Below are positions 1 to 41,501 of a DNA stretch of 41,501 bases, in pieces. Each line of letters opens with the position of its first letter. The first letter of the stretch is position 1. A program made the translations under genes and the position numbers. Below the pieces are notes generated by a model. The model was not told where the DNA came from and made no database searches. It saw nothing but the letters and a program-made list of their open reading frames with translations. The DNA is from a virus (lineage: Duplodnaviria > Caudoviricetes): positions 1 through 41,501 of the IMG/VR virus record IMGVR_UViG_3300016265_000843, one strand, 5' to 3'.

Positions 1-255
1 GAGGAGCAGGCCAAGGCTGCCGCCGCCGCCAAGGCCGATGCCGAGCGCCGCGCCGCCCTGCAGCGCCGCATTGAGGAAGCTGCCGCCGTGGACGTTCATG
101 CGAACGACGAAGCGGTGACCCGCCAGACCTGGCAGCTGCTGGTGTCCCAGCTGCAGGAAGCCATGGCCGGCATGACCCGGCTCCAGGTGGCCGAAGCCAT
201 CGCCGATGGCCGCCTGCACGACGCCATCACCATCAACTGGGGGGTGATGGCATGA
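1..255 (+). CDS. C-terminal fragment of a coiled-coil phage protein (probably the same gene that starts at 41167)
   Basis: Frame 1 is open from base 1 (EEQAKAAAAAKADAERRAALQ...VAEAIADGRLHDAITINWGVMA*); its TGA overlaps the ATG at 252 (ATGA). Not in the supplied ORF track. Confidence 0.7.
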   Translation, partial: EEQAKAAAAAKADAERRAALQRRIEEAAAVDVHANDEAVTRQTWQLLVSQLQEAMAGMTRLQVAEAIADGRLHDAITINWGVMA

Positions 256-896
256 ACTGCCCCCAATGCGGTCACGGTCACACCCGCGTCCGCGATACCA
301 AGCGCGTTCTGGAGGGCCTGCGCCGTTACCGGCAATGCGCCAAATGCCGCCATCCGTTCGGCACGCTGGAACGGATCGAGCTGTGGGATCCAACGGTTGG
401 CGCCTACGGCGTGGTCGACGCCGGCGCCCCCGTCCCGCCACTGGCCCTGGTGCCGCCCGCCTCGGTGGTGATCACCCCTCCAGAGCCACAGCCCGAACCC
501 GTCGCAGCGGAGGCGCCCGCCGCACCGGCAGCAGGCCGGATGACCCGGTTCATGCCCAGCGTGGAAGACCTGCCCGATGCGATCTGCCTCGACGCGGCGC
601 CGCTGCTGCTGAGCTGGTGGTGCGAGGCGCGGCGAAGCAAGCATCAGGGCCGCGCCACCTGGACCCGCGCTGCCTGGCAGGCGTCGGCTGATCGGGTGGC
701 GCAGCTGCCCGATGCGCAACAGCTGGCCCTGTGTCAGGCCGGCAATGAACACGGCTGGCAGGCGCTGAAGCCTGAATACCTGGCGGGCTCTGGTCCTGCC
801 CTGCCCCCGGCGCCGGCCGTTGTGGCCGCCGGCCGGTTGATGCCAAAGGATCCCGCAATGCTCGCCGCTCTGGACGCATGGCCCGAAACCGCCTGA
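252..896 (+). CDS. NrdR-type Zn-ribbon domain fused via a Pro/Ala linker to a putative replication-initiator-like C-terminal domain
   Basis: N-term MNCPQCGH..TRVRDT....LRRYRQCAKC...FGTLE matches the NrdR N-terminal zinc ribbon pattern, with no ATP cone; C-term W..ARRSK...TWT.AA...NEHGWQAL resembles the 'W...RK...T..A...NGWQGL' ending of phage initiators. Confidence 0.6.
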   Translation: MNCPQCGHGHTRVRDTKRVLEGLRRYRQCAKCRHPFGTLERIELWDPTVGAYGVVDAGAPVPPLALVPPASVVITPPEPQPEPVAAEAPAAPAAGRMTRFMPSVEDLPDAICLDAAPLLLSWWCEARRSKHQGRATWTRAAWQASADRVAQLPDAQQLALCQAGNEHGWQALKPEYLAGSGPALPPAPAVVAAGRLMPKDPAMLAALDAWPETA

Positions 897-1546
897 CCCC
901 CGAGACATTCCTGGCGGCGGCCGAAATGATCGCTGCCCAGCTGCGGATCAAGGAGGCAGATCGCTGGTCGCCGCACATCTGCCGGCTGAAGTTTCACAGC
1001 TTCACCAGTGAGTTCCCCGAGGTCAACGAGACGCAGTTCCTGTGGGCTGCCGAGCAGTGGATCCAGGGCCTCGCGCCTGGTCAGTTCACCCGGTATCCCA
1101 CCTGGAAGGAGCTGATGGCGCCGCTGTATCGCACCGAGAACGGCCTGGCGAATCGCAGCTGGGGATTCAAGGCAGAGCTGCCGCCGTTTCTGATGCCCAC
1201 GGCGACGCAGCTGGCAGCGCTGCCCACCGCCCGGCGATCACTGGCTGCTGCGCCGGACCCGGTGAATGCCGCGGCCTATGTGCCGTTCGAGGCCGATGAC
1301 CGCGCCCTGCCGCCGCTGCCGCCTGGCGTGGCCACTGACACCCCGCTCACCCCCGAGCGATGGGCCGACTACCTGCGCTGGATTCACACGGAGGAGACCA
1401 ATGCAGCTGACGAGTCACGCGGAACTGCAGCGGATCCTGGAACAGGGACTGATCACCGGAAAGTGGTCGGTTCTGCAGTTCAACAAGACCGGCCGCGACG
1501 TGGTGCTACCGAGCCGGGCATTTCTTCAAGAACACCCGGAGTTTGA
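878..1546 (+). CDS. Putative replicative helicase loader/inhibitor (lambda P position; SPP1 G39P-like motif)
   Basis: FPEVNETQFLWAAEQWIQ...TRYPTWKEL resembles the 'L.D...E.F..A...I....FP.IAEI' signature; directly follows the initiator-like gene. Confidence 0.5.
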   Translation: MARNRLTPETFLAAAEMIAAQLRIKEADRWSPHICRLKFHSFTSEFPEVNETQFLWAAEQWIQGLAPGQFTRYPTWKELMAPLYRTENGLANRSWGFKAELPPFLMPTATQLAALPTARRSLAAAPDPVNAAAYVPFEADDRALPPLPPGVATDTPLTPERWADYLRWIHTEETNAADESRGTAADPGTGTDHRKVVGSAVQQDRPRRGATEPGISSRTPGV

Positions 1547-1595
1547 GGACATGGAACTGAGAGACATGGCCGCATTCAGGAGGCACCACGGATGA
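1401..1595 (+). CDS. Hypothetical phage protein
   Basis: ATG at 1401 preceded by GGAGGAG; MQLTSHAELQRILEQGLITGKWS...; stop overlaps next ATG; overlaps the 3' end of the previous ORF. Confidence 0.65.
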   Translation: MQLTSHAELQRILEQGLITGKWSVLQFNKTGRDVVLPSRAFLQEHPEFEDMELRDMAAFRRHHG

Positions 1596-1831
1596 CCTGG
1601 ACTGATGACTACGAACCGGGCCAGGAGGTGCTGGCCCTGAACGGCGGCAACTGGAGACGCTGCACCATCAACACGGTGCGCAGTCGCAGCGTGATGGCAT
1701 CCGCAACTGGTGGAAGCATTGCCGTCACATTCAACATTCACGACCCTCGCAACATCAAGCCATGCCCGACACCGACACCGACACCAGAACAGACCTCGCC
1801 TACGACCGAGCAGCTCTCACTCGAATCTTGA
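1592..1831 (+). CDS. Hypothetical small beta-rich protein (SH3/Tudor-like pattern)
   Basis: AGGAGG upstream, ATGA coupling; YEPGQEVLAL...WRRCTI. Confidence 0.55.
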   Translation: MTWTDDYEPGQEVLALNGGNWRRCTINTVRSRSVMASATGGSIAVTFNIHDPRNIKPCPTPTPTPEQTSPTTEQLSLES

Positions 1832-1950
1832 AACGTGCCCGTGTCCTGCACAAGGATGCCGTCAGCACCTATGCCATTGGCTGGTGGGATGGCTACATCC
1901 GCTTCGCTGAGGTGATGCTGGGGATTGAGAGGGAGGAGGGCAATGGCTGA
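1762..1950 (+). CDS. Hypothetical phage protein
   Basis: 62 aa ORF with Y..GWWDGYIR motif; stop overlaps next start. Confidence 0.5.
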   Translation: MPDTDTDTRTDLAYDRAALTRILKRARVLHKDAVSTYAIGWWDGYIRFAEVMLGIEREEGNG

Positions 1951-2371
1951 GCTAAGCCCCACTGGGCCTCGCAAGTTAATCACCATGAGTCAACAATGCT
2001 TTCTTCGTCTACCAAGTGGCTATCTACTTGACCTGTCTCAGGTTGCGTGCGTAGCGCCGACTACAGGGGACCAGGCGCATCGACGCTTTACCGTGCATTT
2101 TCGGTCTGGCTTGACTGTTGAGCTTTACGAAAATAGATCAGACATGCCTGCCTGCCATATTGCGCGTGAAGACTTTATTCGCGCCCTTGAGCAGCTGCAG
2201 GAGCTGGAGGATGCTAAAGGCGAATGGCAGGCTGGTGGATCATCCGACAGCCAGAGCGACGTGGAACGCGAGGGGATGCGCTATTTGCAAACCTACGCGC
2301 AAGACGGTCCGCACAAGCTGATTATTCGCCAACACACCACACAAACCATCAACGAGATCACCAATGGCTGA
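1943..2371 (+). CDS. Hypothetical modular phage protein
   Basis: ATG at 1943 after GGAGGAGG; lower-GC codon usage; coupled to neighbours. Confidence 0.6.
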   Translation: MAELSPTGPRKLITMSQQCFLRLPSGYLLDLSQVACVAPTTGDQAHRRFTVHFRSGLTVELYENRSDMPACHIAREDFIRALEQLQELEDAKGEWQAGGSSDSQSDVEREGMRYLQTYAQDGPHKLIIRQHTTQTINEITNG

Positions 2372-2837
2372 CCTCAGGCACCTGCTGGCCATCTACGTCC
2401 ACGCGCACCAGACGGGCAACTCGGTGCCGCCTCACATTGATGCTGAAGCCCGCTGGCACTTAGGACTACCTGTGTCAGATGGACCGAAAGAGTTCGCCCG
2501 CTGGGGCCGCCCTGCGCCCGCACCCCCAGCCGATGGGGAGGTGGCGGAGTTGGTGGTTGAACTACGCCGCTTCCGGTCCGTGTCGTGCCACCGCGCCGCC
2601 GAGCTGCTGGAGCGGCAGGCGCTGGTGCCGGTGGCTGTGAGCGAGCGTCCTCTGGAACCGGAGGATTGTGATGCGGAGGGACGGTGTTGGTGGTTTTGCC
2701 CCACATCTGTTTTGCCAAACGGAATGCTTCCTTACTGGTGCCTAGGGCCTGCGGACCCTCCGAAGTCTTGGTTCACCCACCGCCTCCCCGCCCACGCCCT
2801 GCCAATTCCAAAACAACAGGAGATCAACAATGGCTGA
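2364..2837 (+). CDS. Hypothetical modular protein, paralog 1 (PADGEVAELV...PVAVSERP...CDAEG.CW...LPAHALP domain)
   Basis: Shares its C-terminal domain with 3060..3725. Confidence 0.7.
   Translation: MADLRHLLAIYVHAHQTGNSVPPHIDAEARWHLGLPVSDGPKEFARWGRPAPAPPADGEVAELVVELRRFRSVSCHRAAELLERQALVPVAVSERPLEPEDCDAEGRCWWFCPTSVLPNGMLPYWCLGPADPPKSWFTHRLPAHALPIPKQQEINNG
2517..2647 (+). repeat. Intragenic direct repeat copy 1 (partner 3408..3544)
   Basis: 2517-2556 matches 3408-3447 (39/40); 2590-2647 is identical to 3487-3544 (58 bp). Confidence 0.9.
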
Positions 2838-3063
2838 CCCCACCGTACTGAGCCCCGCCGCCAAGGCGGTGCTGAATGCAGTCGTAGATGGCGCTCATCC
2901 TGCGTTTGCGCCCATCGCAGCACCAATGGCTGCCGCCGCCCTGCGTGCTGTTGCGGATCAGTGCAAGCTTGAGCGGAATTACCACCCCGACTATCCAGAA
3001 ACGGAATCGGTAGTGGTCGTCTCTGACCTCCTCGCCATCGCCACCGAACTGGAGAACCAATGA
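2830..3063 (+). CDS. Hypothetical phage protein (LSPAAKAVL...AAAALRAVADQ...LLAIATELE type)
   Basis: AGGAG RBS; translationally coupled on both sides. Confidence 0.7.
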   Translation: MADPTVLSPAAKAVLNAVVDGAHPAFAPIAAPMAAAALRAVADQCKLERNYHPDYPETESVVVVSDLLAIATELENQ

Positions 3064-3725
3064 CCATTGACACCACCCGCGACCTACTGATCAGCCTGTC
3101 GTCGCACATGGCCTACATGCAGGGCCAACTGGAAGCACACCACGAGCTTGATGACCTAGAGGACTTCTACTGGTATCGCGAGAGTGTCGCATTGCGGCAG
3201 AAGGTGACGGATGCCCTGGCAGAGGAGACGGCTGTGCCGCTGCCTGTAGCAGATGCGGTGGCGACAGCAGAAAGTGAATGCCTGTATGTATTGTCAACTG
3301 CAACAGACCGACCATTGACACCGCACTTGATTGAGGATTTTTATCGTCAGTTTTGCGGCATTATTGAGGGGCTTGTGGATGCCCTTGGTAAGGATAAACC
3401 GACTGAACCCGCACCCCCAGCTGATGGGGAGGTGGCGGAGTTGGTGGCTCAATTGAAATCGCGGCACTACGGGCCTGGCGCATTGGACCGCGCCGCCGAG
3501 CTGCTGGAGCGGCAGGCGCTGGTGCCGGTGGCTGTGAGCGAGCGGCCGTGGGAGCGCGAGGGTTGGTGCGACGCGGAGGGGAACTGCTGGCTGGGCGCAA
3601 ACGTGTTTGATGGTGCCCCGTCGACGTGGCTCTACGGCCCATCTGCTTGGGCCGAGCGATTCCCGCATATTCATCGTGTCTTGCTCCCCGCCCACGCCCT
3701 GCCGCTGCCGGAGGTGGGCGAGTAA
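3060..3725 (+). CDS. Hypothetical modular protein, paralog 2
   Basis: Shares its C-terminal domain with 2364..2837; stop overlaps the exonuclease ATG. Confidence 0.7.
   Translation: MTIDTTRDLLISLSSHMAYMQGQLEAHHELDDLEDFYWYRESVALRQKVTDALAEETAVPLPVADAVATAESECLYVLSTATDRPLTPHLIEDFYRQFCGIIEGLVDALGKDKPTEPAPPADGEVAELVAQLKSRHYGPGALDRAAELLERQALVPVAVSERPWEREGWCDAEGNCWLGANVFDGAPSTWLYGPSAWAERFPHIHRVLLPAHALPLPEVGE
3408..3544 (+). repeat. Intragenic direct repeat copy 2 (partner 2517..2647)
   Basis: Same two matching blocks as copy 1. Confidence 0.9.
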
Positions 3726-4468
3726 TGAAAGCCCTGATCGATCTTGAGTTCTACCTGTACCGCATCGCTTCAGCGTGCGAGTACGAAATGGAATGGGAGC
3801 CGGATGTGTGGACCTACGCCTGTCGTCACGACGAGGCGAAGGACGGCATTCAACAGTTCATTGGCAGCGTGCGCGAGGCGCTGCCGGATTGCGAGCAGAT
3901 CATCCTGGCGGTTGGTGATCGCGCCAGCTTCCGTTATGGGATCTGGCCCCAGTACAAGGCCAACCGCCGTGGCCGGCGTCCACCCGCCGGCTATCGCAAG
4001 CTGATCGACTGGGTGAAGCAGGCGGCTGACACCCGTGGCTGGATCATCCGTGGCCTGCCTGATGTGGAGGCCGACGACGTGCTCGGCATCCTCTGCGAAC
4101 CCGGTGATGTGATCGTCTCCGAGGACAAGGATCTGCTGTCCGTTCCCGGCCTGCACCTGCGCGGCGCCGAGTTCATCGAGCAATCCACCGCCCAGGCCGA
4201 TCGCGCCTTCTACGGCCAGGTGCTCACCGGCGACAGCTCAGACAACTACCCCGGCTGCCCGGGCATCGGCGCCGTCAATGCCGCCAAGCTGCTCGACCCA
4301 TGCCGCACGGAGATCGAGATGTGGGCCGCAACGGCGGCGGCCTTCCAGAAGAAGGGCGTGTCCCTCTCTGATGCCATCGCCCAGGCCCGCTGCGCTCGCA
4401 TCCTGCGGGCCGGTGAATACGACCTAGCGGCCGGCACTCCTCGGCTGTGGCAGCCTCCGGTAGCCTGA
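3725..4468 (+). CDS. 5'-3' exonuclease (T7 gp6-like, FEN/PIN fold)
   Basis: ALIDLEFYLY, FRYGIWPQYKANR, VEADDVLGI, SEDKDL, LTGDSSDNYPGCPGIGAVNA motifs; true start is the ATG at 3725. Confidence 0.93.
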   Translation: MKALIDLEFYLYRIASACEYEMEWEPDVWTYACRHDEAKDGIQQFIGSVREALPDCEQIILAVGDRASFRYGIWPQYKANRRGRRPPAGYRKLIDWVKQAADTRGWIIRGLPDVEADDVLGILCEPGDVIVSEDKDLLSVPGLHLRGAEFIEQSTAQADRAFYGQVLTGDSSDNYPGCPGIGAVNAAKLLDPCRTEIEMWAATAAAFQKKGVSLSDAIAQARCARILRAGEYDLAAGTPRLWQPPVA

Positions 4469-28675: not shown

Positions 28676-28861
28676 ATGACCATGGAGCCAGCCACGATCA
28701 TTGCTGCCCTGGGGCTCCTCGGTGCCGGCGTTGCCGGTATCTGGAAGATCGCCGGGCAGTTCGGTGATTTCCGCGGCCGGACCAACACCTGCATCGAGCA
28801 CCTCACGCGGCTGACCAGCAAGCACGACGAGCGGATCTCCACCCTTGAGAGGGCCCGCTGA
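28676..28861 (+). CDS. Small membrane protein with coiled-coil tail (possible lysis accessory)
   Basis: N-terminal hydrophobic helix IIAALGLLGAGVAGIW; ends HDERISTLE. Confidence 0.6.
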   Translation: MTMEPATIIAALGLLGAGVAGIWKIAGQFGDFRGRTNTCIEHLTRLTSKHDERISTLERAR

Positions 28862-29046
28862 TGGATCGCATCGCCAGCTATGTCGCCGTCGCCGTCGCCA
28901 TCCACGGCCTGGCGCTGGTGATCGTCAACATCACCCCCACCCCCAAGGACAACGAAGCCCTCGACAACATCAGCCGCCTGGCCGTGAAGACCTATCGACT
29001 GATCGAGGTCATCGCCGGGCTGTGGGGCCCCCTGGCCAAGCGCTGA
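28861..29046 (+). CDS. Putative holin-like small membrane protein
   Basis: Hydrophobic N-terminus and VNITPTPKDNE motif. Confidence 0.55.
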   Translation: MDRIASYVAVAVAIHGLALVIVNITPTPKDNEALDNISRLAVKTYRLIEVIAGLWGPLAKR

Positions 29047-29066
29047 ATCCCTGCACCTGTGAAACC

Positions 29067-29363
29067 ATGGCCGACCTCGCCAAACAGCTCGAAGACCTCC
29101 ACGCTGCCGTCGTCGAAACCGTCAAGACCCGCATCGAAAACGGCGGCACCCGCGACGACAACGGCAACCTCCTCGAACCCCTCAGCAACGACGACCTCCG
29201 CGTCGCCCTGCAGCTGCTGAAGCAGAACCAGATCAGTGCCGCTGCCATGCCAAGCACCCCAACGGCAGACCTGGCGCGAATGGCCGGCAAGCTGAACTTC
29301 CAGACCCTGGAAGCAAAGGCCAAGGTCGTGCCCATCCGCGCAGACGACAAGCTCAGCGCCTGA
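29067..29363 (+). CDS. Terminase small subunit (T7 gp18-like)
   Basis: LEDLHAAV...DLRVALQLLKQNQI pattern; ATG at 29067. Confidence 0.75.
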   Translation: MADLAKQLEDLHAAVVETVKTRIENGGTRDDNGNLLEPLSNDDLRVALQLLKQNQISAAAMPSTPTADLARMAGKLNFQTLEAKAKVVPIRADDKLSA

Positions 29364-31119
29364 CGCCCCCGTAGGCCATGCCACGAGGCCGCGGCGTCCA
29401 ACCAAGCGCCAGAGCATCAATGCTGGCGCCCGTCTCGTCAAACCACGCTTTCAGGTTGGCCTCGTCGATCTCGTCTTGGCGAACCTGACGCGCCACCTTC
29501 TGGTCCTGCGCGGCGGCCTCCACAAACCAGCCGACGCCCAGCGATAAGGCATCAATCCGGTCGTCAAACTGCAGCGCCCCACGCTCGGTCGTGATTCGAC
29601 TGAGCTGGTACATCAACGAGCGGGCGTGGCCGCTGTCAGGATCGCGCTCAGCGCCGGCCCAGTCCTGTTGGATCACCTCTTGATTCACGACCAGGCGGTG
29701 CTGCTGCACCACTGGGGCCAGCACGTCGACGATCCGCCGTTCCTTCTGCCCTGACACGCGCTTCTCCTCGACCGAGCAGGGATGAACCGCCTTCACCACG
29801 GGTTGCAGCAGTGCGGTGAACATGCCATCGCCCAGGTTGGATTCCGCCACGATGGTGTTCACCTTCCACCGCAGCGCCTTCTGCGCCAGCAGCTGCAGAA
29901 CCTCTGGCTCGTACCCCCTGGTCGTGCCACCGGCCTCCAGCAGGAACAGGTTGCCATTCAGCTCTGCAATCACCGCCCAGGCCAGCTCATCGCTACCGCG
30001 GCCGGATGGATCCACCGCCAGGATGCACCGCCAGGTTTCCTTCTGCGGCACCCACCCCTGCACCAGCGCCGGGCCGTAATAGGTGCGGTCACTGCCGAGC
30101 CCCACGCATGGCAGGCTCTGCAGGCGGTGCTCATTGGCCGAGGACCACCCCACCACGTCTGGCAACGCCTTGCCATCCAGCGGCATCACGATCAGATCGC
30201 CCAGCCGGATCGGGTAGCGATCAAGCGTCGACAGGCGGCAGTTCAGCATCAGCTGCAGTTGCACGCCGGCTCGCGTCGTCCGCATTTCCCGGCTGCGCAG
30301 TTCCTGCTCGCCAAAACGCTCAGGGTCGGTCGGCTTGCCGGCCAGGCTCGGGTCGGCTTCAACCTCTGCTGCGATCAGTGGATCCAGCCCACCCTCGTAA
30401 CACTCCCACTGATCCGGGTCTGCCGGGTTGGGGTATCGCGCCGGCCAGTACCGGATCGCGTAGTTCCGCTCACGCACCAGCCGCAGATAGAGCGATGTCT
30501 CCAGGTGCGGCGTGCCGAGGAACATGATCATCCGCGGCAGATCCTGGCCTTCATCCGGCTTGAGGATCATTTCGAGCTCGGTCACGGCCTGCGCCAGGCG
30601 CTCCTGCTTGAGCGGCGTGATCGAGTTGTTCAGCGTCTCGATGTCGTCTGGGATGGCGCAGGTGCAGCGCTTGCCGGTCAATGCAGGCGACAGGATGCCA
30701 ACCGCTCGCACCGATGGGCTCTGATCAACGATCGCAGGCCCCACGTCAAAGGCCTTGGTTGAGCTCCGGCCATCGGCCCGTGGCTCCAGGCACCGCAGGA
30801 TGTCAATGTCGCGGATGCAGCGCTGCATGAAGGTCGTAACCTCCACCGCCTTCTCCAGCGTGCTGCCAGGGATCAGCACCTTCTCGTTGAACGGATCGAT
30901 CCGCAGCCGATGCAACGCCCGGAAGGCGGCCATGGTGCTCTTGGCCACACCACGAAAACCCACCGTGATCTGACGGTTTGGGCCGTTCTCCATCCAGTCG
31001 CAGATGCCCAGCTGCTGCTTGGTGGGCTCATCCGCCAGGTTCAGCTCCCGCAGCAGGTAGCAGACGAAGTACGGGAACCGCCCAGGGCCAATCTCAGGCG
31101 GGATCGGAGTCCAGCTCAC
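29353..31119 (-). CDS. Terminase large subunit (T7 gp19-like), inverted
   Basis: PTKQQ, GFRGVAKS (Walker A), IPDDIE (Walker B), LGTP, YWPARYP, VDPSGRGSDE, DDRIDAL nuclease motifs. Confidence 0.96.
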   Translation of the reverse strand: MSWTPIPPEIGPGRFPYFVCYLLRELNLADEPTKQQLGICDWMENGPNRQITVGFRGVAKSTMAAFRALHRLRIDPFNEKVLIPGSTLEKAVEVTTFMQRCIRDIDILRCLEPRADGRSSTKAFDVGPAIVDQSPSVRAVGILSPALTGKRCTCAIPDDIETLNNSITPLKQERLAQAVTELEMILKPDEGQDLPRMIMFLGTPHLETSLYLRLVRERNYAIRYWPARYPNPADPDQWECYEGGLDPLIAAEVEADPSLAGKPTDPERFGEQELRSREMRTTRAGVQLQLMLNCRLSTLDRYPIRLGDLIVMPLDGKALPDVVGWSSANEHRLQSLPCVGLGSDRTYYGPALVQGWVPQKETWRCILAVDPSGRGSDELAWAVIAELNGNLFLLEAGGTTRGYEPEVLQLLAQKALRWKVNTIVAESNLGDGMFTALLQPVVKAVHPCSVEEKRVSGQKERRIVDVLAPVVQQHRLVVNQEVIQQDWAGAERDPDSGHARSLMYQLSRITTERGALQFDDRIDALSLGVGWFVEAAAQDQKVARQVRQDEIDEANLKAWFDETGASIDALALGWTPRPRGMAYGGVRR

Positions 31120-32857: not shown

Positions 32858-33214
32858 ATGAGGACGGAGACGAGCGCAGCGGGCCTGGGGGAGTTGCACC
32901 CGGTCGAGCTGTTGTTGCTGCTGGGGCTGGCGGTTGCGCTGGCGATTTGGGAGCTGAGCGTGGCTCTGATCGGGCTGGCGGGCGCCGCGGCCGGCTGGCG
33001 GGCGCCGATGGCACCGGCCACGGCACCGGCTGAGATCGAGCGGGCGCCGATGGCACCGGCTGCACCGATGGCGCACCCGATCGGCGAAGCGCTGGCGGAG
33101 CTGGGGACGCTGACGGTTCGGGAGCTGCGGGCGATGGCCCGGGAAGCCGGCCACCGCCAACTGGCGCGCAATGGGCGCCGGGCTGATCTGCTGGCAGCGC
33201 TGGGGGCGATCTGA
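32858..33214 (+). CDS. Early membrane-anchored protein with C-terminal Rho-N/HeH-like domain
   Basis: ATG 32858 after (CCACA)3 + AGGAGGAGG; hydrophobic segment; LTVRELRAMAREAG...RRADLLAAL. Confidence 0.7.
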   Translation: MRTETSAAGLGELHPVELLLLLGLAVALAIWELSVALIGLAGAAAGWRAPMAPATAPAEIERAPMAPAAPMAHPIGEALAELGTLTVRELRAMAREAGHRQLARNGRRADLLAALGAI

Positions 33215-33827: not shown

Positions 33828-34406
33828 ATGGCCACCACAACCACAACCAGGCCGCAAGCAATCGCCACCACATGCCCCGCCGTGGGCGTTTACGTGGCGT
33901 GTCTCGCCGCCTACAACGCCGGCCGCCTTCATGGGGCCTGGATTGATCTGGAGGAATGCCACGACGTCGACGACCTACAGGAGGCGATCGACTGGGTTCT
34001 GAAGGGCAGCCCTGAACCAGGGGCGGAGGAATGGGCCGTTCATGATTCCTGCGGCCTGCCCGGCTATCTGAGCCGGACGGAATGGCCGGAGCTGGCGCAG
34101 CTGATCGAGTGGGCGCAGGTCGCGGCCGAGCTCGGCGACGACGACGAGCTGGAGGCCTACCGGATCGAATGCGACAACCAGGGCGAGACCGTCACGATCG
34201 ACGCCTTCCGCGACGTTTACCGCGGGGTCCACACCAGCGGCGAGGACTACGCCCAGGAGCTGGCAGAGGAGATCGGCGCCATCCCGGCGGATGCCGGTTG
34301 GCCCGTCCGTTGCATCGATTGGGAGGCGGCTTGGCGAGAGCTCACCTTTGACGGCTACCGCGACGAGCGCTGCAGCAGCGGCGGGGTTCACGTGTTCTGC
34401 GGCTGA
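33828..34406 (+). CDS. ardA: Antirestriction protein ArdA (DNA mimic)
   Basis: VYVACLAAYNAGRLHGAWID, AEEWAVHD, EDYAQELAEE, IDWEAAWREL; very acidic. Confidence 0.92.
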   Translation: MATTTTTRPQAIATTCPAVGVYVACLAAYNAGRLHGAWIDLEECHDVDDLQEAIDWVLKGSPEPGAEEWAVHDSCGLPGYLSRTEWPELAQLIEWAQVAAELGDDDELEAYRIECDNQGETVTIDAFRDVYRGVHTSGEDYAQELAEEIGAIPADAGWPVRCIDWEAAWRELTFDGYRDERCSSGGVHVFCG

Positions 34407-36425: not shown

Positions 36426-37421
36426 ATGGCCGGATCAGTCAGAAAGGCGCCTGATGGCACCTGGATCGCCGACGTTTCGGTGAACGGCACTCGCCGCACC
36501 GCCCGGTGTCGCAGCAAGGCCGACGCCCTGCAGCGCAAACGGGAACTGCTGGAACAGCTGCTGCAGCGCGACGCCCATCCCACCGTGGGGTTCACGCTGG
36601 CCGACGCCCGAGCGCTGAGCTTGCGGGTGCGCTGGGACGGCACCGCCTACGAGCGAACCGCTGCCATCTACAGCCAACAGGCGGTCGACCACTTCGGCAG
36701 CGGCTGCCCGGTGGAGGCCATCACCACGCCAGCCGTCGACGCCTGGCGCCAGAAGCTGCTCGCCGGCGGCAACCGCCCGTCGACCGTCAACCGCAAGGTG
36801 TCGGCGCTGCGAGCGATGCTGGCCGACGCTCAGCTTCATGGCCACCTGGTGGAGCTGCCGCGGATGCCGCAGCAGCTGCGCAACGGTGGCCACCGCGATC
36901 GAGTGATCAGCGACGACGAACGCGATCGCCTCTGCCTGGCATTCCGCGAGCTGGGACAACCCGCCGCGGCTGATCTGCTGGTGTTCCTGCTGGAGACCGC
37001 CTGCCGGTGGGGGGAGGCCGAGCGGTTGCGCTGCGAGCACGTCGACTTGGTGAAGGGCCGCGCCACGTTCTGGGCCACCAAGAACGGCAAGCCCCGCACC
37101 GTCCCGTTGACCAGGCGGGCTGTTGATGCCCTGCTGCCTCACCACACCGCAGGCCTGCCAGCGGCTCGCGTGTGGCCCTACTCCTACCGACAGTTCCAGT
37201 GGTGCTGGGACACGGCCAAACAGGCCGCCGGCCTGGGCGAGGACCGCTCGCTCACGATCCACATCACACGCCACACCTGTGCCTCCAGGCTGGCCAGCCG
37301 TGGCATCCCCCTGCACCAGCTGATGGCCTTTGGTGGATGGACATCGCTGGCCTCGGTGCAGCGCTATCTGCACCTGAACACCGACGCCTTGAGCGCTTGC
37401 GTCAGTGCATTGGAGGCCTGA
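36426..37421 (+). CDS. int: Tyrosine integrase
   Basis: Catalytic set: TACR (R), TKNGK (K), HITRH (HxxR), GGW, VQRYLH (Y); N-terminal arm-binding-like segment; STVNRKVSAL. Confidence 0.95.
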   Translation: MAGSVRKAPDGTWIADVSVNGTRRTARCRSKADALQRKRELLEQLLQRDAHPTVGFTLADARALSLRVRWDGTAYERTAAIYSQQAVDHFGSGCPVEAITTPAVDAWRQKLLAGGNRPSTVNRKVSALRAMLADAQLHGHLVELPRMPQQLRNGGHRDRVISDDERDRLCLAFRELGQPAAADLLVFLLETACRWGEAERLRCEHVDLVKGRATFWATKNGKPRTVPLTRRAVDALLPHHTAGLPAARVWPYSYRQFQWCWDTAKQAAGLGEDRSLTIHITRHTCASRLASRGIPLHQLMAFGGWTSLASVQRYLHLNTDALSACVSALEA

Positions 37422-37589: not shown

Positions 37590-37740
37590 TCTGCTCATCT
37601 GCATCCACCCAGAGTTAAGCGAAACAGCAGCCTGTGGCAGGCGAAACGCGGCTCTGCGAGGGTGAAGCGGTCGAGCCGCTGAAAACCCCAGTTGGATGCG
37701 GCGCGAAATCAGAAAACGTGCGTCCACCCCTGTGGATTTG

Positions 37741-40062
37741 ATGCCGACGCAGCAGCAGATCGCATCTGCCCGGGCCATCCGCGCCCGCTTGATCAGCCGC
37801 GGCCAGGAGAGCTCAACCGAATACGGCAGGGCCCTGTTTGCCACCCATGGGCAGGCCCTGGCCGACGCGCTTGATGCGCTGATGACCCGCTTCGTGGTGG
37901 ACCCGGCCATCGCTGGCCCCCACTACGAGGCGCTGCCGCTGCTGCTGCACTTCGCCACGGTGGGCGTCCGGCCAGTCGCCAGCGTGGCGCTGACCAAGGT
38001 GCTCGACGGGATCAGCGCAAGGCATCGCCACCGCAAACTGGCCATGGCCATCGGCCGCGCCATCGAGGACGAGGTGCGAGCCGGGCGGATCAAGCACCAC
38101 GACCGGGACACCCTGCGGCTCTTGCTCCGTCATGAAGGCAAGCGAACGGTGCTGGCCCCCAGCACGTTGCGCAGCCTCCGCCTACCAGCGGATCGATGGA
38201 CTCAGCACGATCGGGTATCGGTGGGATCCCTGCTGCTGCGGCTGATCGTCTCCGAAACCGACCTGGTGCAGATCGTCTCCCAGGCAGTGCGGGGCGTCAT
38301 GGTGCTGATGGTGGAGGCAACACCGGCGACGCTGGAGCTGGTGCGCTCGATGCCCCTGGACATCAGGCCAGAACGCGGCCGGCCCCAGCTGACGCCACCC
38401 GAACCACGAGACGGTTACGCCGGCCTGGTGCGACGGCGCGACGGCGCGTCGACGGATTACATGCAGCAGGCCGGCCCGGCTGCGCTGGCGGCCGTGCAAC
38501 GGCTGGAGGCCCAGCCGGTGACGGTTGACCCCTGGATGGCCGATGTGCAGCAGCAGGCATGGGCGGCAAACATCCGCGGCCTGTTCTCTGTGACCCGCGA
38601 TCCGGCGCAAGCTCCGCCGCGACCGCACGACGCGACCGACCACGAGGCGATGGCCAACTGGAGACGGCAGGAGCGGGCCGCCTGGGCTGATGGGCGGGAG
38701 CATGGCCGTGCCCGCGAGCGCATTGACGAAGCGATCCGCGAGGCGCAGTGCCTCGCCGGACAATCGATCTGGTTCCGCTACGACCTGGACTTTCGCGGGC
38801 GGGTCTACACCGCCAATCGCACGACCACCCATCAGGGGCCTGACCACGAAAAGGCGCTGCTGTGGCTGCCGCCCGAGCCCTGCGACGAGGAGGCCGCCGA
38901 CTGGATGCTGCGGGCCTGCGCTGGCCACTGGGGGCTGAGCCGTGCCAGCTGGGATGAACGGCTGCGTTGGGGGCGGGACAACATCGATCGGCTGGTCGCC
39001 GTGGCCGACGCGCCGCTGGATCAGGTGGAGCTCTGGCGTGATGCCGCCGATCCCTGGCAGTTCCTGCAGATGGCCCGCGCCTTTCGGCTGTGGCTGGGGG
39101 ACCCGGCAACCCCGATCGGTGCGCCGGTGCGCCTCGATCAGACCACCTCTGGCCTGGGCATCGCCGCAGCCCTGGTGCGCGACGAGCGATTGGCGCGTGA
39201 AACCAATCTGATCGGGTCTACCCGGCACGACATCTATCAGCGGGTGGCCGATGAGCTGGTGGCCGCGCTGCAGCGTGAGCTGGAGGCGGGGGTGCCATCC
39301 CATCAACGCCATGCCGCGCAGTGGCTGGAGATCGGCATTACCCGCTCGCTGTGCAAGGAGCCGGTGATGGCGGCCATCTATGGAGGGCAGTTCCAGAGCC
39401 TGTTCGATGGTCTGGCGGACCACCTGCGCAATGCGGCGCTGCCAAAGCGGGCCAGTGAATACGAGCGCAGCGTGGTGATTCCGGCGCGTTTTCTGGCGAA
39501 GCTGATGAAGGAGACCCTTCAGCCAGAGCTGGCGCCGTTGCTGGCGCTGAAGGACTGGCTGAAGGGAGCCAGCGCCGCCGTGGTGAAACAGCAGCAGCAG
39601 TTGCGCTGGACGTCGCCGAGCGGTTTCCCGGTGGTGCTAGGCGGCAAGCGGCGGGCTCATGCGCCAGCTCACACGCTGCTGCATGGCTCCAGGGGATGGG
39701 AGACACCTGACAGCGACGAGCGCCGGCGCGAGCTGAGCGTGCTGGCAACCAACCGAAGCATCACCGCCAACCTGGTGCATTCGTTTGACGCGGCCTTGGT
39801 CCATGCCGTGATCTGCAGGGCTGAAGCAGTGAGCGCACACGTCCTGACAAATCACGATTGCTTTGCCGTGACGCCAGCTCGGGCTCAGTGGCTGCACCAA
39901 ACGCTGCTTGGCGAGTTGCGTTCCCTTTACATGCCGGACTGGCTTGATGAAATCCGAGCCGAGATCACGACACACAGCGGCATTCCTGGCCTGCCAGCGC
40001 CGCCAATGGTTGGCACGCTGAACCCGGCTCGCATCGGCCAGAACCCCTACGTCTTTTCCTAG
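37741..40062 (+). CDS. Single-subunit T7-like DNA-directed RNA polymerase
   Basis: DFRGRVY, DPWQFL, PVRLDQTTSG (motif A), RSLCKEPVMAAIYGG (motif B), WTSPSGFPV, NLVHSFDA, NHDCF (motif C); start 37741 preferred over 37696. Confidence 0.95.
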   Translation: MPTQQQIASARAIRARLISRGQESSTEYGRALFATHGQALADALDALMTRFVVDPAIAGPHYEALPLLLHFATVGVRPVASVALTKVLDGISARHRHRKLAMAIGRAIEDEVRAGRIKHHDRDTLRLLLRHEGKRTVLAPSTLRSLRLPADRWTQHDRVSVGSLLLRLIVSETDLVQIVSQAVRGVMVLMVEATPATLELVRSMPLDIRPERGRPQLTPPEPRDGYAGLVRRRDGASTDYMQQAGPAALAAVQRLEAQPVTVDPWMADVQQQAWAANIRGLFSVTRDPAQAPPRPHDATDHEAMANWRRQERAAWADGREHGRARERIDEAIREAQCLAGQSIWFRYDLDFRGRVYTANRTTTHQGPDHEKALLWLPPEPCDEEAADWMLRACAGHWGLSRASWDERLRWGRDNIDRLVAVADAPLDQVELWRDAADPWQFLQMARAFRLWLGDPATPIGAPVRLDQTTSGLGIAAALVRDERLARETNLIGSTRHDIYQRVADELVAALQRELEAGVPSHQRHAAQWLEIGITRSLCKEPVMAAIYGGQFQSLFDGLADHLRNAALPKRASEYERSVVIPARFLAKLMKETLQPELAPLLALKDWLKGASAAVVKQQQQLRWTSPSGFPVVLGGKRRAHAPAHTLLHGSRGWETPDSDERRRELSVLATNRSITANLVHSFDAALVHAVICRAEAVSAHVLTNHDCFAVTPARAQWLHQTLLGELRSLYMPDWLDEIRAEITTHSGIPGLPAPPMVGTLNPARIGQNPYVFS

Positions 40063-40116
40063 GACTCTCCTAAGACGGTCCTAGGTGTTGCCTAGGAGGC
40101 ATCAACGCTGTACGTT
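40057..40116 (+). promoter_or_regulatory. Four TCCTAGGA-type boxes at 11-bp period overlapping a sigma70-like promoter
   Basis: TCCTAGGA 40057, TCCTAAGA 40068, TCCTAGGT 40079, GCCTAGGA 40090; TTGCCT (40088)-17 bp-TACGTT (40111). Confidence 0.8.
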
Positions 40117-40145
40117 TGCAGCGCATCTGCATCCGTTCAGAGCTG

Positions 40146-40802
40146 ATGGGATCCAAAGTCATCGTGTCGCCCGCTGGTTCGCTCCAGTGGGCCAAGGTCT
40201 GCAAGCCCGGCGTGGTCAACCGGGGCAAGCCCGGCGAGCGGGAGCAGTGGTCCTGCGACCTGCTGCTGGAGAAGGGCGACGCCGAGGCGCAGGCGTTTGT
40301 GAAGCAGTTGAAGGCTGAGTTCGTTGAGCGCCACGGCAATGCCGCCCGGCCCGGCCCAAACGGCCTGCCCTTCAAGACCCACCTGGATCAGGCCGGCGAC
40401 GAAACCAACCTCTGGCAGTTCCGTTTTGCCCGGAACGTGGTCACCAGCCGCGGCCATGAACTGAGCCCGCCGCTGGTGCAGGACGCAGCGGGAACGCTGT
40501 GGCCCAAGGACGTGCTGATCGGCAACGGCAGCACCGGCAAGGTGGCGTTCGACATCTGGCACTGGTCCAACCCCGAGGCCGGGAAAGGCATCAGCCTCAA
40601 CCTGCAGGGCGTGCGTGTGCTCTACCTGGTGGAGTACCAGGCGCCTGATGTGGGCGAAGCGTTCGGCGAACCCGAGGCCGGCTATGTGCTGACCGGCCAG
40701 GAGACCCGCACCGCACCTCAGGGCCAGGCCCCGGCCCCGGCTGCAACGCCGGCTGCCGCCCTTGATGGCTGGCCGGATGACAGCGAGGAGGTCCCGTTCT
40801 GA
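40146..40802 (+). CDS. Single-stranded DNA-binding protein (T7 gp2.5-like)
   Basis: SPAGSLQWAKV..P, PPLVQDA.G, IGNGSTGKV, GISLNLQGVRVL.LVEY, acidic tail ending EEVPF. Confidence 0.88.
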   Translation: MGSKVIVSPAGSLQWAKVCKPGVVNRGKPGEREQWSCDLLLEKGDAEAQAFVKQLKAEFVERHGNAARPGPNGLPFKTHLDQAGDETNLWQFRFARNVVTSRGHELSPPLVQDAAGTLWPKDVLIGNGSTGKVAFDIWHWSNPEAGKGISLNLQGVRVLYLVEYQAPDVGEAFGEPEAGYVLTGQETRTAPQGQAPAPAATPAAALDGWPDDSEEVPF

Positions 40803-41170
40803 TGACGCAAGTTCGCACGGCCGATTTCGTCGTGCCCCTGCCGCTGCAACCCAAGAGCCGCCCACGGTTCGGCCGTGGCAAGGCCTTCAAGGACAGCAAG
40901 TATCGGGCCTGGATGGAATCGTGCCGGGCGATTCTTGCCGAGTGGTGGACCATCCCGCCACTACAGAAAGGCCAAGTGGTCGCGCTGCACCTCACCTTCT
41001 ACGGGCCTGGCACCAGCGATCTCGACAACCTGCAGGGCGCCGTTCTGGATGCCGGCAAGGGTGTCGTCTGGACCGACGACCGGGTGACGGTGCTGCGCCG
41101 CATCGAAGCGCAGTGGGAACCAGCACCACGCAGCCAACAGCAAATCGCAATCAAGGTGATCTACACATGA
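40802..41170 (+). CDS. rusA: RusA-like Holliday junction resolvase
   Basis: PKSRPRF, DLDNLQGAVLDA..GVVWTDDRV catalytic Asp pattern. Confidence 0.85.
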   Translation: MTQVRTADFVVPLPLQPKSRPRFGRGKAFKDSKYRAWMESCRAILAEWWTIPPLQKGQVVALHLTFYGPGTSDLDNLQGAVLDAGKGVVWTDDRVTVLRRIEAQWEPAPRSQQQIAIKVIYT

Positions 41171-41501
41171 CCGCAACACTGGCGACAGCCAACGAGCCGA
41201 TCGTCATCACGCAGTATCAGGTACTGCTGGATGACATCAAGGAGGCGCAGCAAACTGCGACGCCATCGTTCGAGTACGACAGCAAGGAAGGCAACAAGGC
41301 CGCCCGCTCCTACATCTTCCAGCTGCGCAAGCTGCGCGGCCGGATTGAATCGGAACGCAAGGAGGCCAAGAGCTACGCCCTTGCCTATGGCAAGCGGGTG
41401 GATGAACAGGCCAAGGAGCTGATGGCCCAGGTGGATGAACTGATCCTTCCCCACCAGGAAGCGATCGATGCCATCGCCCGCCGCGAAGCCGAGCGGGTGG
41501 C
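41167..41501 (+). CDS. N-terminal fragment of a coiled-coil phage protein (lambdoid early-region type), truncated by the window end
   Basis: ATG 41167 overlaps the rusA stop; FEYDSKEGNKAARSYIFQLRKLRGRIESERKEAK...GKRVDEQAKEL; open to the end. Confidence 0.75.
   Translation, partial: MTATLATANEPIVITQYQVLLDDIKEAQQTATPSFEYDSKEGNKAARSYIFQLRKLRGRIESERKEAKSYALAYGKRVDEQAKELMAQVDELILPHQEAIDAIARREAERV

What the first reader, a model, noticed from the sequence alone, without database searches (positions are those of the whole stretch)
252..1546. T7-like phage whose replisome appears replaced by a lambdoid initiator/helicase-loader pair
Seen: between the T7-type SSB (40146) and the T7-type exonuclease (3725), running across the window junction, there is no family-A DNA polymerase, no gp4 primase-helicase and no endonuclease I. 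Instead there are RusA, a coiled-coil protein, an initiator-like gene and a G39P/P-like loader gene. Known: T7-like phages normally encode gp3, gp4 and gp5 here; lambdoid phages use an O/P-type pair to recruit the host replisome. Polymerase-less cyanopodoviruses have been reported, so loss of DNAP alone is not new. Inference: this is a chimera with a T7 virion and RNAP but host-dependent, lambda-style replication, which fits its integrase.
Basis: partly seen in the sequence, partly recalled or inferred. Interest (0 to 1): 0.85.

Follow-up and report, generated by a model that had tools for sequence, protein, structure and literature searches.

The report
T7-like cyanophage lacking its own replisome
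This is a T7-type virus, most likely of freshwater cyanobacteria, that carries no DNA polymerase, primase or helicase gene of its own (a loss already published for its lineage), and a conserved gene pair sitting in their place is predicted to hand the host's replication machinery to the viral DNA.

Summary
The window is a 97%-complete S-SRP02-like ('clade S') T7-like phage genome, most likely of a cyanobacterium. Its two ends are joined in two relatives by 433 in-frame bases inside one coiled-coil gene, so nothing is hidden at the junction. No DNA polymerase, primase or DnaB-type helicase domain was found in the window, in S-SRP02, or in 15 near-complete relatives; all 15 have the T7-type RNA polymerase.

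The gene loss is not new. A 2025 Nature paper states that clade S has no DNA polymerase and that S-SRP02 lacks the primase-helicase. This scan had also met the lineage twice before, on other DNA.

- **252..896:** it has an NrdR-type zinc ribbon, a three-helix domain and a conserved C-terminal tail. Nothing shows it is an initiator, and I found no iterons.

The two genes overlap and were adjacent in every relative checked. A host-replisome adaptor is the best reading (about 0.5). 'Lambdoid' ancestry is not shown.

The parts
40116..40802 (+). gp2.5-like single-stranded DNA-binding / annealing protein (probable ATG at 40146)
   Evidence: PHROG 112, E 7.7e-20. Weak Pfam SBB_T7 match, 0.0031. 38-100% identical in nine related loci.
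40802..41170 (+). RusA-type Holliday-junction resolvase, in the position of T7 endonuclease I
   Evidence: Pfam RusA 8.1e-10. PHROG 140, 1e-15.
41167..41501 (+). N-terminal part of a 340-aa coiled-coil gene that runs off the window end; an accessory gene
   Evidence: Translation. The whole gene is seen in L001 8704-9726 and matches phrog_1376, function unknown, at 4.1e-13. Found in 3 of 9 related loci.
1..255 (+). C-terminal part of the same coiled-coil gene
   Evidence: Translation. Joined in frame through 433 bases in L001 and L002.
252..896 (+). P0001: NrdR-type zinc ribbon (residues 1-54), disordered Pro/Ala linker, three-helix domain (116-167) and a conserved C-terminal tail (194-211). 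Predicted DNA-binding adaptor.
   Evidence: Pfam Zn_ribbon_NrdR 1.3e-9. PDB NrdR 1.3e-9 by profile. AlphaFold model. Family alignment A2. Present in 15 of 15 near-complete relatives.
878..1546 (+). P0002: conserved protein with a G39P-like N-terminal helical domain; predicted helicase loader. The conserved part ends near 1402. The last ~48 codons overlap the next gene and look non-functional.
1401..1595 (+). g64: conserved 64-aa gene with a GGAGGAG ribosome-binding site, always next after P0002; function unknown
   Evidence: Sequence. Found directly downstream of P0002 in 9 of 9 related loci at 42-100% identity. No Pfam, PHROG or NCBIfam match.
1592..1831 (+). g79: small gene of unknown function, partly conserved
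   Evidence: tblastn hits in 7 of 9 loci. No family match.
1946..3698 (+). Variable island of four small genes, absent from the closest relatives; not part of the conserved module
   Evidence: L001 and L002 skip window 1946-3698. G+C is lower, 0.606. The genes at 2364-2837 and 3060-3725 share a C-terminal domain.
3725..4468 (+). gp6-like 5'-3' exonuclease / flap endonuclease
   Evidence: Pfam 5_3_exonuc_N 1.2e-11. PHROG 107, 1.4e-51. NCBIfam matches only the 5'-exonuclease part of Pol I, positions 56-240 of 889.
37696..40062 (+). T7-type single-subunit RNA polymerase
   Evidence: Pfam RNA_pol 6.4e-43. PHROG 414, 6.3e-115. 45% identical to the S-SRP02 RNAP.
36426..37421 (+). Tyrosine integrase, just upstream of the RNAP gene
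   Evidence: Pfam Phage_integrase 1.8e-20. PHROG 1, 4.8e-46.

Best explanation
This is a clade-S (S-SRP02-like) T7-like phage genome with no recognisable DNA polymerase, primase or replicative helicase gene, and the conserved overlapping gene pair at 252..896 and 878..1546 is predicted to act as a DNA-binding adaptor plus a G39P-like helicase loader that would bring the host's DnaB helicase, primase and Pol III to the phage DNA.

Shown:
- The replisome genes are absent from this genome and from every relative examined.
- The gene order RNAP, SSB, RusA, P0001, P0002, g64, exonuclease is conserved, with the pair in the slot where T7-like phages carry gp4 and gp5.
- P0001 has an NrdR-type zinc ribbon.
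- P0002's N-terminal fold is most like G39P.

Inferred:
- P0002 binds host DnaB.
- P0001 tethers that complex to phage DNA through its zinc ribbon, with its three-helix domain or conserved C-terminal tail acting as the docking element.
- Opening of the DNA may come from transcription by the phage RNAP or from recombination intermediates made by the gp2.5-like SSB, the exonuclease and RusA.
- Host primase and Pol III do the synthesis.
For: **The absence is real and clade-wide.**
- Window ends: bridged by 433 in-frame bases.
- Window: no polymerase, primase or helicase family in 181 of 190 six-frame ORFs of 75 aa or more.
- Window, S-SRP02, L001 and L002: DNA_pol_A, DnaB_C, Toprim_2 and Prim-Pol all absent.
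- Fifteen near-complete relatives: I took the 15 of the 80 IMG/VR loci that lie on contigs of 35.8 kb or more; 13 are at least 90% complete and 2 have terminal repeats. DNA_pol_A 0 of 15, DnaB_C 0 of 15, T7-type RNAP 15 of 15.

**The pair is conserved as a unit.**
- P0001 is present in 15 of 15 of those relatives.
- By my comparison of the coordinates, it abuts or overlaps P0002 in all 15.
- The order P0001, P0002, g64 holds in 9 of 9 loci.
- In the window the two genes overlap by 19 bases.
- P0002 is the most conserved non-structural protein against S-SRP02: 73% identity, compared with RNAP 45%, SSB 39% and P0001 42%.

**P0002 fold.**
- The model is confident (pLDDT above 90 over residues 10-125).
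- The nearest named Atlas clusters were G39P_N (0.91) and Phage_lambda_P (0.89), and 5 of 10 Atlas structure rows carried G39P_N.
- Among the named weak BFVD hits were 5 'replisome organizer' and 2 'G39P N-terminal' proteins.

**P0001.**
- The zinc ribbon is homologous to the zinc-ribbon domain of NrdR, which I recall to be its DNA-binding part.
- Its C-terminal domain's nearest named Atlas clusters were Phg_2220_C, DUF7833, DnaT and DnaB_2 at 0.86-0.89, which are leads only.
Against: - **No sequence-level link to any loader or initiator.** The Pfam HMMs for G39P, lambda P, lambda O, DnaB_2, DnaT and Phg_2220_C gave no six-frame match at E<=10. hmmscan of the 40 and 41 family members individually at E<=1 listed none of them (only the first 25 of 58 families were shown for the P0001 family). 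hhalign against G39P, alone or with three homologues, and against G38P gave 0.1-0.2% probability.
- **No iteron-like repeats** in or near the pair, in the 31-37.7 kb region, or as clustered k-mers across the window.
- **No host is identified and no experiment is available.**
Confidence: 0.5

Rival explanations
1. P0001 is simply a zinc-ribbon transcription regulator (NrdR- or Ogr/Delta-like), and P0002 has some other role. The phage would still use host enzymes, but without a dedicated loader. Replication would start from RNAP transcripts or from recombination intermediates made by the gp2.5-like SSB, the exonuclease and RusA, with host restart proteins loading DnaB.
For: Only the zinc ribbon of P0001 is recognisable, and its structural neighbours are mostly small phage proteins named as transcription regulators. 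The best Ogr_Delta match among family members is 1.7e-5. S-SRP02 annotates the homologue as 'transcriptional regulator NrdR'. No iterons were seen. A full recombination toolkit sits beside the pair.
Against: P0001 lacks the ATP-cone that defines NrdR: 35 bits against a cut-off of 124.65, and only residues 1-49 match. It overlaps P0002 and is always adjacent to it. P0002's best PDB match is a helicase loader. The pair sits in the DNA-metabolism block, in the gp4/gp5 slot.
Confidence: 0.25
2. P0002 binds host DnaB only as an inhibitor, to shut off host replication, and does not load it onto phage DNA.
For: The depositors title G39P a 'helicase loader/inhibitor'. High conservation (73% to S-SRP02) would fit a tight grip on a conserved host protein.
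Against: The phage has no helicase of its own. By inference, blocking the only available replicative helicase would stop the phage too, unless the block also redirects the helicase, which is what a loader does.
Confidence: 0.1
3. The phage encodes an unrecognised, highly divergent polymerase or helicase among its unassigned proteins. This is the third option raised for the polymerase-less MPP-C phages in ISME J 2022 (PMC9860041).
For: Many ORFs have no family match, including proteins of 948 and 1908 aa.
Against: Those large proteins lie in the virion internal-core block, between the tail-tube and tail-fibre genes. All unassigned genes between the SSB and exonuclease genes are short; the longest is the 340-aa coiled-coil gene. 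No polymerase or helicase model gave even a weak hit.
Confidence: 0.07
4. The replisome genes are only missing from the assembly, lost in the gap between the window ends.
For: The record is linear, with an open gene at each end, and the break lies exactly where gp4 and gp5 would be.
Against: Two independent contigs bridge the break with 433 in-frame bases of one gene. Two relatives with terminal repeats, and 13 relatives at least 90% complete, also lack the genes. So does the complete circular S-SRP02 genome.
Confidence: 0.01

Closest known systems
Synechococcus phage S-SRP02 (MW822601.1) and 'clade S' T7-like cyanophages
   Same: The gene order is the same: integrase, RNAP, SSB, RusA, zinc-ribbon protein, P0002 homologue, exonuclease, portal, virion genes. 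The large terminase is on the opposite strand in both. 30 of the 47 S-SRP02 proteins have a tblastn match in the window. The Nature 2025 paper (PMC12695635; passages read) states that clade S has no DNA polymerase and that S-SRP02 lacks the primase-helicase.
   Different: The two are distinct phages: RNAP is 45% identical and P0001 42%. The window adds a coiled-coil gene, a 1.75-kb variable island and ArdA. It lacks the gene that S-SRP02 annotates as 'DNA polymerase III beta subunit'. None of the papers I read assigns a role to the gene pair.
SPP1 G38P / G39P (origin-binding protein plus helicase loader)
   Same: Both have two adjacent, overlapping genes in the replication block. The N-terminal helical domain of P0002 superposes on all 67 residues of G39P (1no1_A) at rmsd 2.5 A, the best of 48,161 chains.
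   Different: There is no sequence similarity. SPP1 follows the pair with its own DnaB-type helicase, gene 40 (the function of gene 40 is recalled), whereas this phage has none. P0001 has a zinc ribbon, unlike G38P.
Lambda O / P
   Same: The logic is the same, as an inference: a small DNA-binding protein plus a partner that captures host DnaB, in a phage with no helicase or polymerase of its own. The account of lambda is established knowledge, recalled.
   Different: The Phage_rep_O and Phage_lambda_P models gave no match at E<=10. No iterons lie inside the first gene. Everything else in the genome is T7-like, not lambdoid.
MPP-C (clade C) cyanopodoviruses
   Same: They are T7-like cyanophages without a DNA polymerase gene. 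Their authors proposed use of host Pol I or Pol III, citing SPP1 as a model (PMC9860041; passages read).
   Different: MPP-C phages keep the primase/helicase as a core gene. This lineage has lost it as well.
NrdR transcriptional repressor
   Same: The N-terminal zinc ribbon is homologous (Pfam 1.3e-9; PDB 7p37_A 1.3e-9).
   Different: There is no ATP-cone. Only residues 1-49 match TIGR00244, at 35 bits against a cut-off of 124.65. The rest is a linker, a three-helix domain and a conserved tail.

Membership tests
Clade S (S-SRP02-like) T7-like cyanophages | T7-type RNAP and T7-type virion and packaging genes, syntenic with S-SRP02 | tested here: met
   RNAP, portal, capsid, tail tube, nozzle, tail fibre and terminase families all hit. 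30 of the 47 S-SRP02 proteins match in the same order.
Clade S (S-SRP02-like) T7-like cyanophages | No DNA polymerase gene and no primase-helicase gene | tested here: met
   for the window; for the junction.
G39P_N / Inhibitor_G39P (PF11417) | Match to the family's sequence model | tested here: not met
   No six-frame match at E<=10 in the window, S-SRP02 or three MAGs. None in hmmscan of the 40 family members at E<=1. hhalign probability 0.1-0.2%.
G39P_N / Inhibitor_G39P (PF11417) | The helical N-terminal fold of G39P | tested here: inconclusive
G39P_N / Inhibitor_G39P (PF11417) | Binds a DnaB-type helicase and delivers it to DNA | not testable with these tools
   Needs biochemistry with the host's DnaB. 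The host is not identified.
Lambda P (PF06992) | Match to the family's sequence model | tested here: not met
   No match at E<=10. There is only an Atlas lead at 0.89.
Lambda O (PF04492) | Match to the family's sequence model | tested here: not met
   No match at E<=10.
Lambda O (PF04492) | Origin iterons inside the initiator gene | tested here: not met
   No iteron-like repeat family in 252..896 or around it. The iteron feature itself is recalled.
NrdR (TIGR00244) | N-terminal zinc ribbon | tested here: met
   Pfam Zn_ribbon_NrdR 1.3e-9; 41 of 41 family members match it.
NrdR (TIGR00244) | ATP-cone domain after the ribbon, and a full-length match over the curated cut-off | tested here: not met
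   Only residues 1-49 match, at 35.3 bits against a cut-off of 124.65. The model shows a disordered linker and a three-helix domain instead.
DnaD-like domains (DnaB_2 PF07261, Phg_2220_C PF09524, DnaT PF17948) | Match of the P0001 C-terminal domain to a family sequence model | tested here: not met
   No match at E<=10.
DnaD-like domains (DnaB_2 PF07261, Phg_2220_C PF09524, DnaT PF17948) | Shared fold of the P0001 C-terminal domain | tested here: inconclusive
   These families do not appear among the 50 best VIA rows. There are only Atlas leads at 0.86-0.89. The domain was not folded on its own.

The most novel reading that the evidence does not exclude
A whole clade of T7-like phages has discarded the T7 replisome and replicates through the host's DnaB, primase and Pol III. 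It would do so using a compact three-gene module: a zinc-ribbon DNA binder, a very divergent G39P-type helicase loader, and a 64-aa partner. This would be the first case of host-replisome capture in the Autographiviridae. It would also add a new, sequence-unrecognisable branch of phage helicase loaders, aimed at the cyanobacterial helicase.
Probability: 0.4. Interest if true: 0.65.

Novelty: new variant of a known kind. Interest (0 to 1): 0.45.

Why it matters
T7 is the textbook self-sufficient replicator. A T7-like lineage with no polymerase, primase or helicase must use the host replisome, and how it does so is unknown.

The pair at 252..1546 is a concrete, testable candidate for the adaptor. 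An isolate carrying the same pair, S-SRP02 on Synechococcus sp. SR-C1, already exists, so the experiment is feasible.

There is also a practical point. DNA polymerase is used as a marker gene for cyanopodoviruses (abstract of PMC9860041), so surveys based on it miss this lineage. In addition, its exonuclease has been mis-annotated as 'DNA polymerase I' and used as a polymerase in a phylogeny (PMC8790148).

Tried and rejected
- **Complex prediction.** P0001 residues 100-214 with P0002 residues 1-182, both with alignments, gave no verdict (score 0.08 against a mark of 0.32; controls not run). This counts neither for nor against binding.
- **Family profiles for hhalign.** Scans of IMG/VR with SPP1 G39P found only SPP1 itself. 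Scans with G38P found only relatives of its N-terminal half. The large protein search with G39P found 3 close homologues. The resulting 4-row profile gave 0.1% probability.
- **Intermediate-sequence search.** The P0002 family profile found only 44 proteins at E<=0.001 among 1.84 billion representatives. The 17 most distant or longest of these that I scanned carried no relevant Pfam family; the only hit was one chance-level match (NQR2_RnfD_RnfE, 0.0087, under its cut-off).
- **Origin search.** I looked for direct and inverted repeats and G+C dips in the replication block and in 31.0-37.7 kb, and for clustered k-mers across the window. Nothing was iteron-like.
- **Integration.** No tRNA gene in the window or in 7 loci. 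No tRNA-like match between the integrase and RNAP genes. Integration is therefore not shown here.
- **Host.** Six MAG contigs carry the pair. Three are labelled Cyanobium or Prochlorococcaceae. The other three are labelled Sphingomonadaceae, Klebsiella and Lysobacterales. These labels come from binning, not from integration, so they are only a hint.
- **Tally over all 80 IMG/VR loci.** The script failed because the script machine was lost. I replaced it with HMM searches of the 15 longest records.
Full report
**What the window is.** The window is an IMG/VR virus record of 41,501 bases. It is classed 'linear' and estimated 97% complete by CheckV, with about 65% G+C and no tRNA gene.

Family scans give a T7-like map that is circularly permuted in the record:
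- an anti-restriction ArdA gene (33828..34406);
- a tyrosine integrase (36426..37421);
- a T7-type RNA polymerase (37696..40062);
- a gp2.5-like SSB (40116/40146..40802);
- RusA (40802..41170);
- a gene that runs off the 3' end;
- at the 5' end, the tail of a gene (1..255);
- a zinc-ribbon protein (252..896, P0001) and an unknown protein (878..1546, P0002);
- small genes, then a gp6-like exonuclease (3725..4468);
- portal, scaffold, capsid, tail tube, nozzle, internal proteins, tail fibres and small terminase;
- the large terminase, which lies on the minus strand (29353..31119).

The nearest isolate is Synechococcus phage S-SRP02, with RNAP 45% identical. Its annotated map shows the same order, including the inverted terminase. 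30 of its 47 proteins have a tblastn match in the window.

**Is the junction hiding the replisome?** No. Two independent IMG/VR contigs run straight across it: L001 at 99% identity and L002 at 94%. Each places exactly 433 bases between window position 41501 and position 1. The 433 bases keep the reading frame, so the two open ends are one 340-aa gene (L001 8704..9726). The missing piece is 77-83% G+C and codes for a low-complexity Ala/Gln/Glu-rich stretch. That is a likely reason for the assembly break. The gene matches only phrog_1376, of unknown function (4.1e-13). It is present in 3 of 9 related loci, so it is an accessory gene.

**Are polymerase, primase and helicase really absent?** Yes, as far as recognisable families go.
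- *Window ORFs.* A script listed 190 ORFs of 75 aa or more in six frames. Of these, 181 were scanned against Pfam (31, 150). I left out 9 that lie antisense inside the portal and RNAP genes. No polymerase, primase, helicase or T7 endonuclease I family was hit.
- *Window, six-frame HMM searches.* DNA_pol_A found nothing at E<=10. DnaB_C, Toprim_2 and Prim-Pol found nothing at E<=1 in the window, L001, L002 or S-SRP02. DNA_pol_A also found nothing in those three relatives. Control genomes gave hits in each search.
- *Relatives.* The P0002 profile found 102 relatives in IMG/VR, of which 80 loci were kept. I took the 15 on contigs of 35.8 kb or more; 13 are at least 90% complete and 2 have direct terminal repeats. 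DNA_pol_A was found in 0 of 15 and DnaB_C in 0 of 15, while the T7-type RNAP was found in 15 of 15.
- *Interval size.* In the 7 of 9 loci that hold both the SSB and exonuclease genes, the interval between them is 2.6-3.6 kb by tblastn coordinates. In phage P60 the same interval is 4.7 kb and holds an endonuclease, a primase/helicase and a DNA polymerase (annotation).

**What is already in print.**
- *S-SRP02 paper* (PMC8790148; passages read). It calls the exonuclease 'DNA polymerase I', uses it as a polymerase in a tree, calls the P0001 homologue 'NrdR', and never mentions primase or helicase. NCBIfam shows why the exonuclease was misnamed: it matches only the 5'-exonuclease part of Pol I, positions 56-240 of 889.
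- *Nature 2025* (PMC12695635; passages read). [quoted passage not shown]
- *ISME J 2022* (PMC9860041; passages read). It describes the polymerase-less MPP-C phages, which keep the primase/helicase, and proposes use of host Pol I or Pol III.
- *Commun Biol 2025* (PMC12361551; passages read). It lists further polymerase-less Autographiviridae subgroups.
- *Helicase loaders.* The term 'helicase loader' has 0 occurrences in the two papers where I searched for it, and 'helicase' has 0 in the S-SRP02 paper; I did not search the Nature paper for it. A library search for 'helicase loader' with 'Autographiviridae' gave 3 papers, unrelated by their titles. 'G39P' with 'cyanophage' gave none.
- *This scan.* It had met the lineage twice before on other genomes, with the same reading.

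**The gene pair.**
- *Size and layout of the families.* Both proteins belong to tight families found mostly on contigs of about 40 kb: 232 relatives for P0002 and 74 for P0001. The genes overlap by 19 bases in the window. The order P0001, P0002, g64 holds in 9 of 9 loci. In the 15 near-complete relatives the P0001 match abuts or overlaps the P0002 match in all 15, by my comparison of the coordinates.
- *Conservation.* P0002 is the best-conserved non-structural protein against S-SRP02, at 73% identity.
- *Length of P0002.* Most homologues are 175-179 aa. In the window the ORF continues to 1546 over the next gene (g64, 1401..1595, which has a GGAGGAG site). The GC3 signal switches to the g64 frame after about 1350, and the tail is disordered in the model. 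So the functional protein probably ends near residue 175.

**P0002 structure.**
- *Model.* The AlphaFold model is confident over residues 10-125, with pLDDT above 90.
- *Foldseek against the PDB.* It found nothing; the best E was 2.4.
- *Independent leads that agree.* The nearest named Atlas clusters are G39P_N (0.91) and Phage_lambda_P (0.89), and 5 of 10 Atlas structure rows carry G39P_N. The named weak BFVD hits include five 'replisome organizer' and two 'G39P N-terminal' proteins.
- *Sequence level.* Everything is negative: Pfam G39P and lambda P at E<=10, hmmscan of the 40 members, hhalign at 0.1-0.2%, and no PDB sequence match.
- *My reading.* I take this as a probable G39P-type fold (about 0.65-0.7). 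Common descent is not demonstrated.

**P0001 structure.**
- *What is recognisable.* Only the zinc ribbon: Pfam 1.3e-9, and NrdR chains at 1.3e-9 by profile.
- *Not NrdR.* The ATP-cone is missing: 35 bits against a cut-off of 124.65, with only residues 1-49 matching.
- *Model.* It shows a disordered linker, a three-helix domain (residues 116-167) and a short helix in a conserved C-terminal tail.
- *Sequence and leads.* The lambda O, DnaB_2, DnaT and Phg_2220_C models gave nothing at E<=10. Atlas leads to Phg_2220_C, DnaT and DnaB_2 are under 0.9.
- *Iterons.* I found none.
- *My reading.* 'Initiator' rests on context alone, at about 0.35-0.4.

**Mechanism I commit to (confidence about 0.5).** With no polymerase, primase or helicase of its own, the phage has to use host Pol III, DnaG and DnaB. 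That it uses host enzymes I put at about 0.85-0.9.

P0002 is predicted to capture DnaB through a G39P-like domain. P0001 is predicted to tie that complex to phage DNA through its zinc ribbon. The gp2.5-like SSB, the flap exonuclease and RusA would support fork processing, primer removal and resolution of branched concatemers. Opening of the DNA by phage RNAP transcription or by recombination intermediates is an inference.

The rivals are set out in their own section: a plain transcription regulator plus an unrelated protein, a pure DnaB inhibitor, and a hidden novel polymerase.

**Verdict.** The gene loss is already known for the clade. The loader reading is new in print as far as my searches reach, but it rests on a modest fold match. 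The initiator reading and the 'lambdoid' label are not shown.

Noticed in passing
window 29353-31119 (minus strand), with minus-strand genes on to about 31864: The large terminase and at least one gene after it lie on the opposite strand to the rest of the genome, directly abutting the small terminase (28845-29363, + strand). S-SRP02 has the same inversion (p012 and p013 on the minus strand), so it is a lineage trait and not a misassembly. It is unusual for T7-like phages.
   Followed up: partly
window 1946-3698: This 1.75-kb island has lower G+C (0.606) and is absent from the 94-99% identical relatives L001 and L002, which have about 140 and 530 unrelated bases there. It holds four small genes. 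Two of them (2364-2837 and 3060-3725) share a C-terminal domain of about 75 residues, beginning PAPPADGEVAELV.
   Followed up: partly
window 878-1546 and 1401-1595: The P0002 ORF overruns the next gene by 146 bases. Relatives fall into two length classes, 175-179 aa and 209-218 aa. The long tail is disordered in the model and carries no coding signal of its own, so it is probably read-through after loss of a stop codon.
   Followed up: partly
window 33828-34406: An ArdA-type anti-restriction gene (Pfam 5.4e-22) lies in the early region upstream of the integrase, roughly where T7 carries its early anti-restriction function (recalled).
   Followed up: no
L003 (S-SRP02) 22389-23129 and 10903-11607: The S-SRP02 'DNA polymerase I' is only a 5'-3' exonuclease; its window homologue matches Pol I positions 56-240 of 889. 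S-SRP02 also annotates a 'DNA polymerase III beta subunit' (p014), which has no tblastn match in the window. I did not check that annotation.
   Followed up: partly
L010 4266-5404: In the contig from the Prochlorococcaceae MAG, the integrase matches in two pieces (residues 1-259 and 244-331). It may be frameshifted there.
   Followed up: no
L043 (IMG/VR record of 58,560 bases): One relative's record is about 16 kb longer than the others and is rated 100% complete. It could carry host flanks, meaning an integrated copy, or a partial concatemer. This would be the place to look for an attachment site.
   Followed up: no
window 32973-33062: There is a cluster of short G+C-rich direct repeats: a 15-mer twice, 20 bases apart, and a 21-mer twice, 42 bases apart. 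It lies in a region where the coding strand is unclear. I did not read it as an origin.
   Followed up: no
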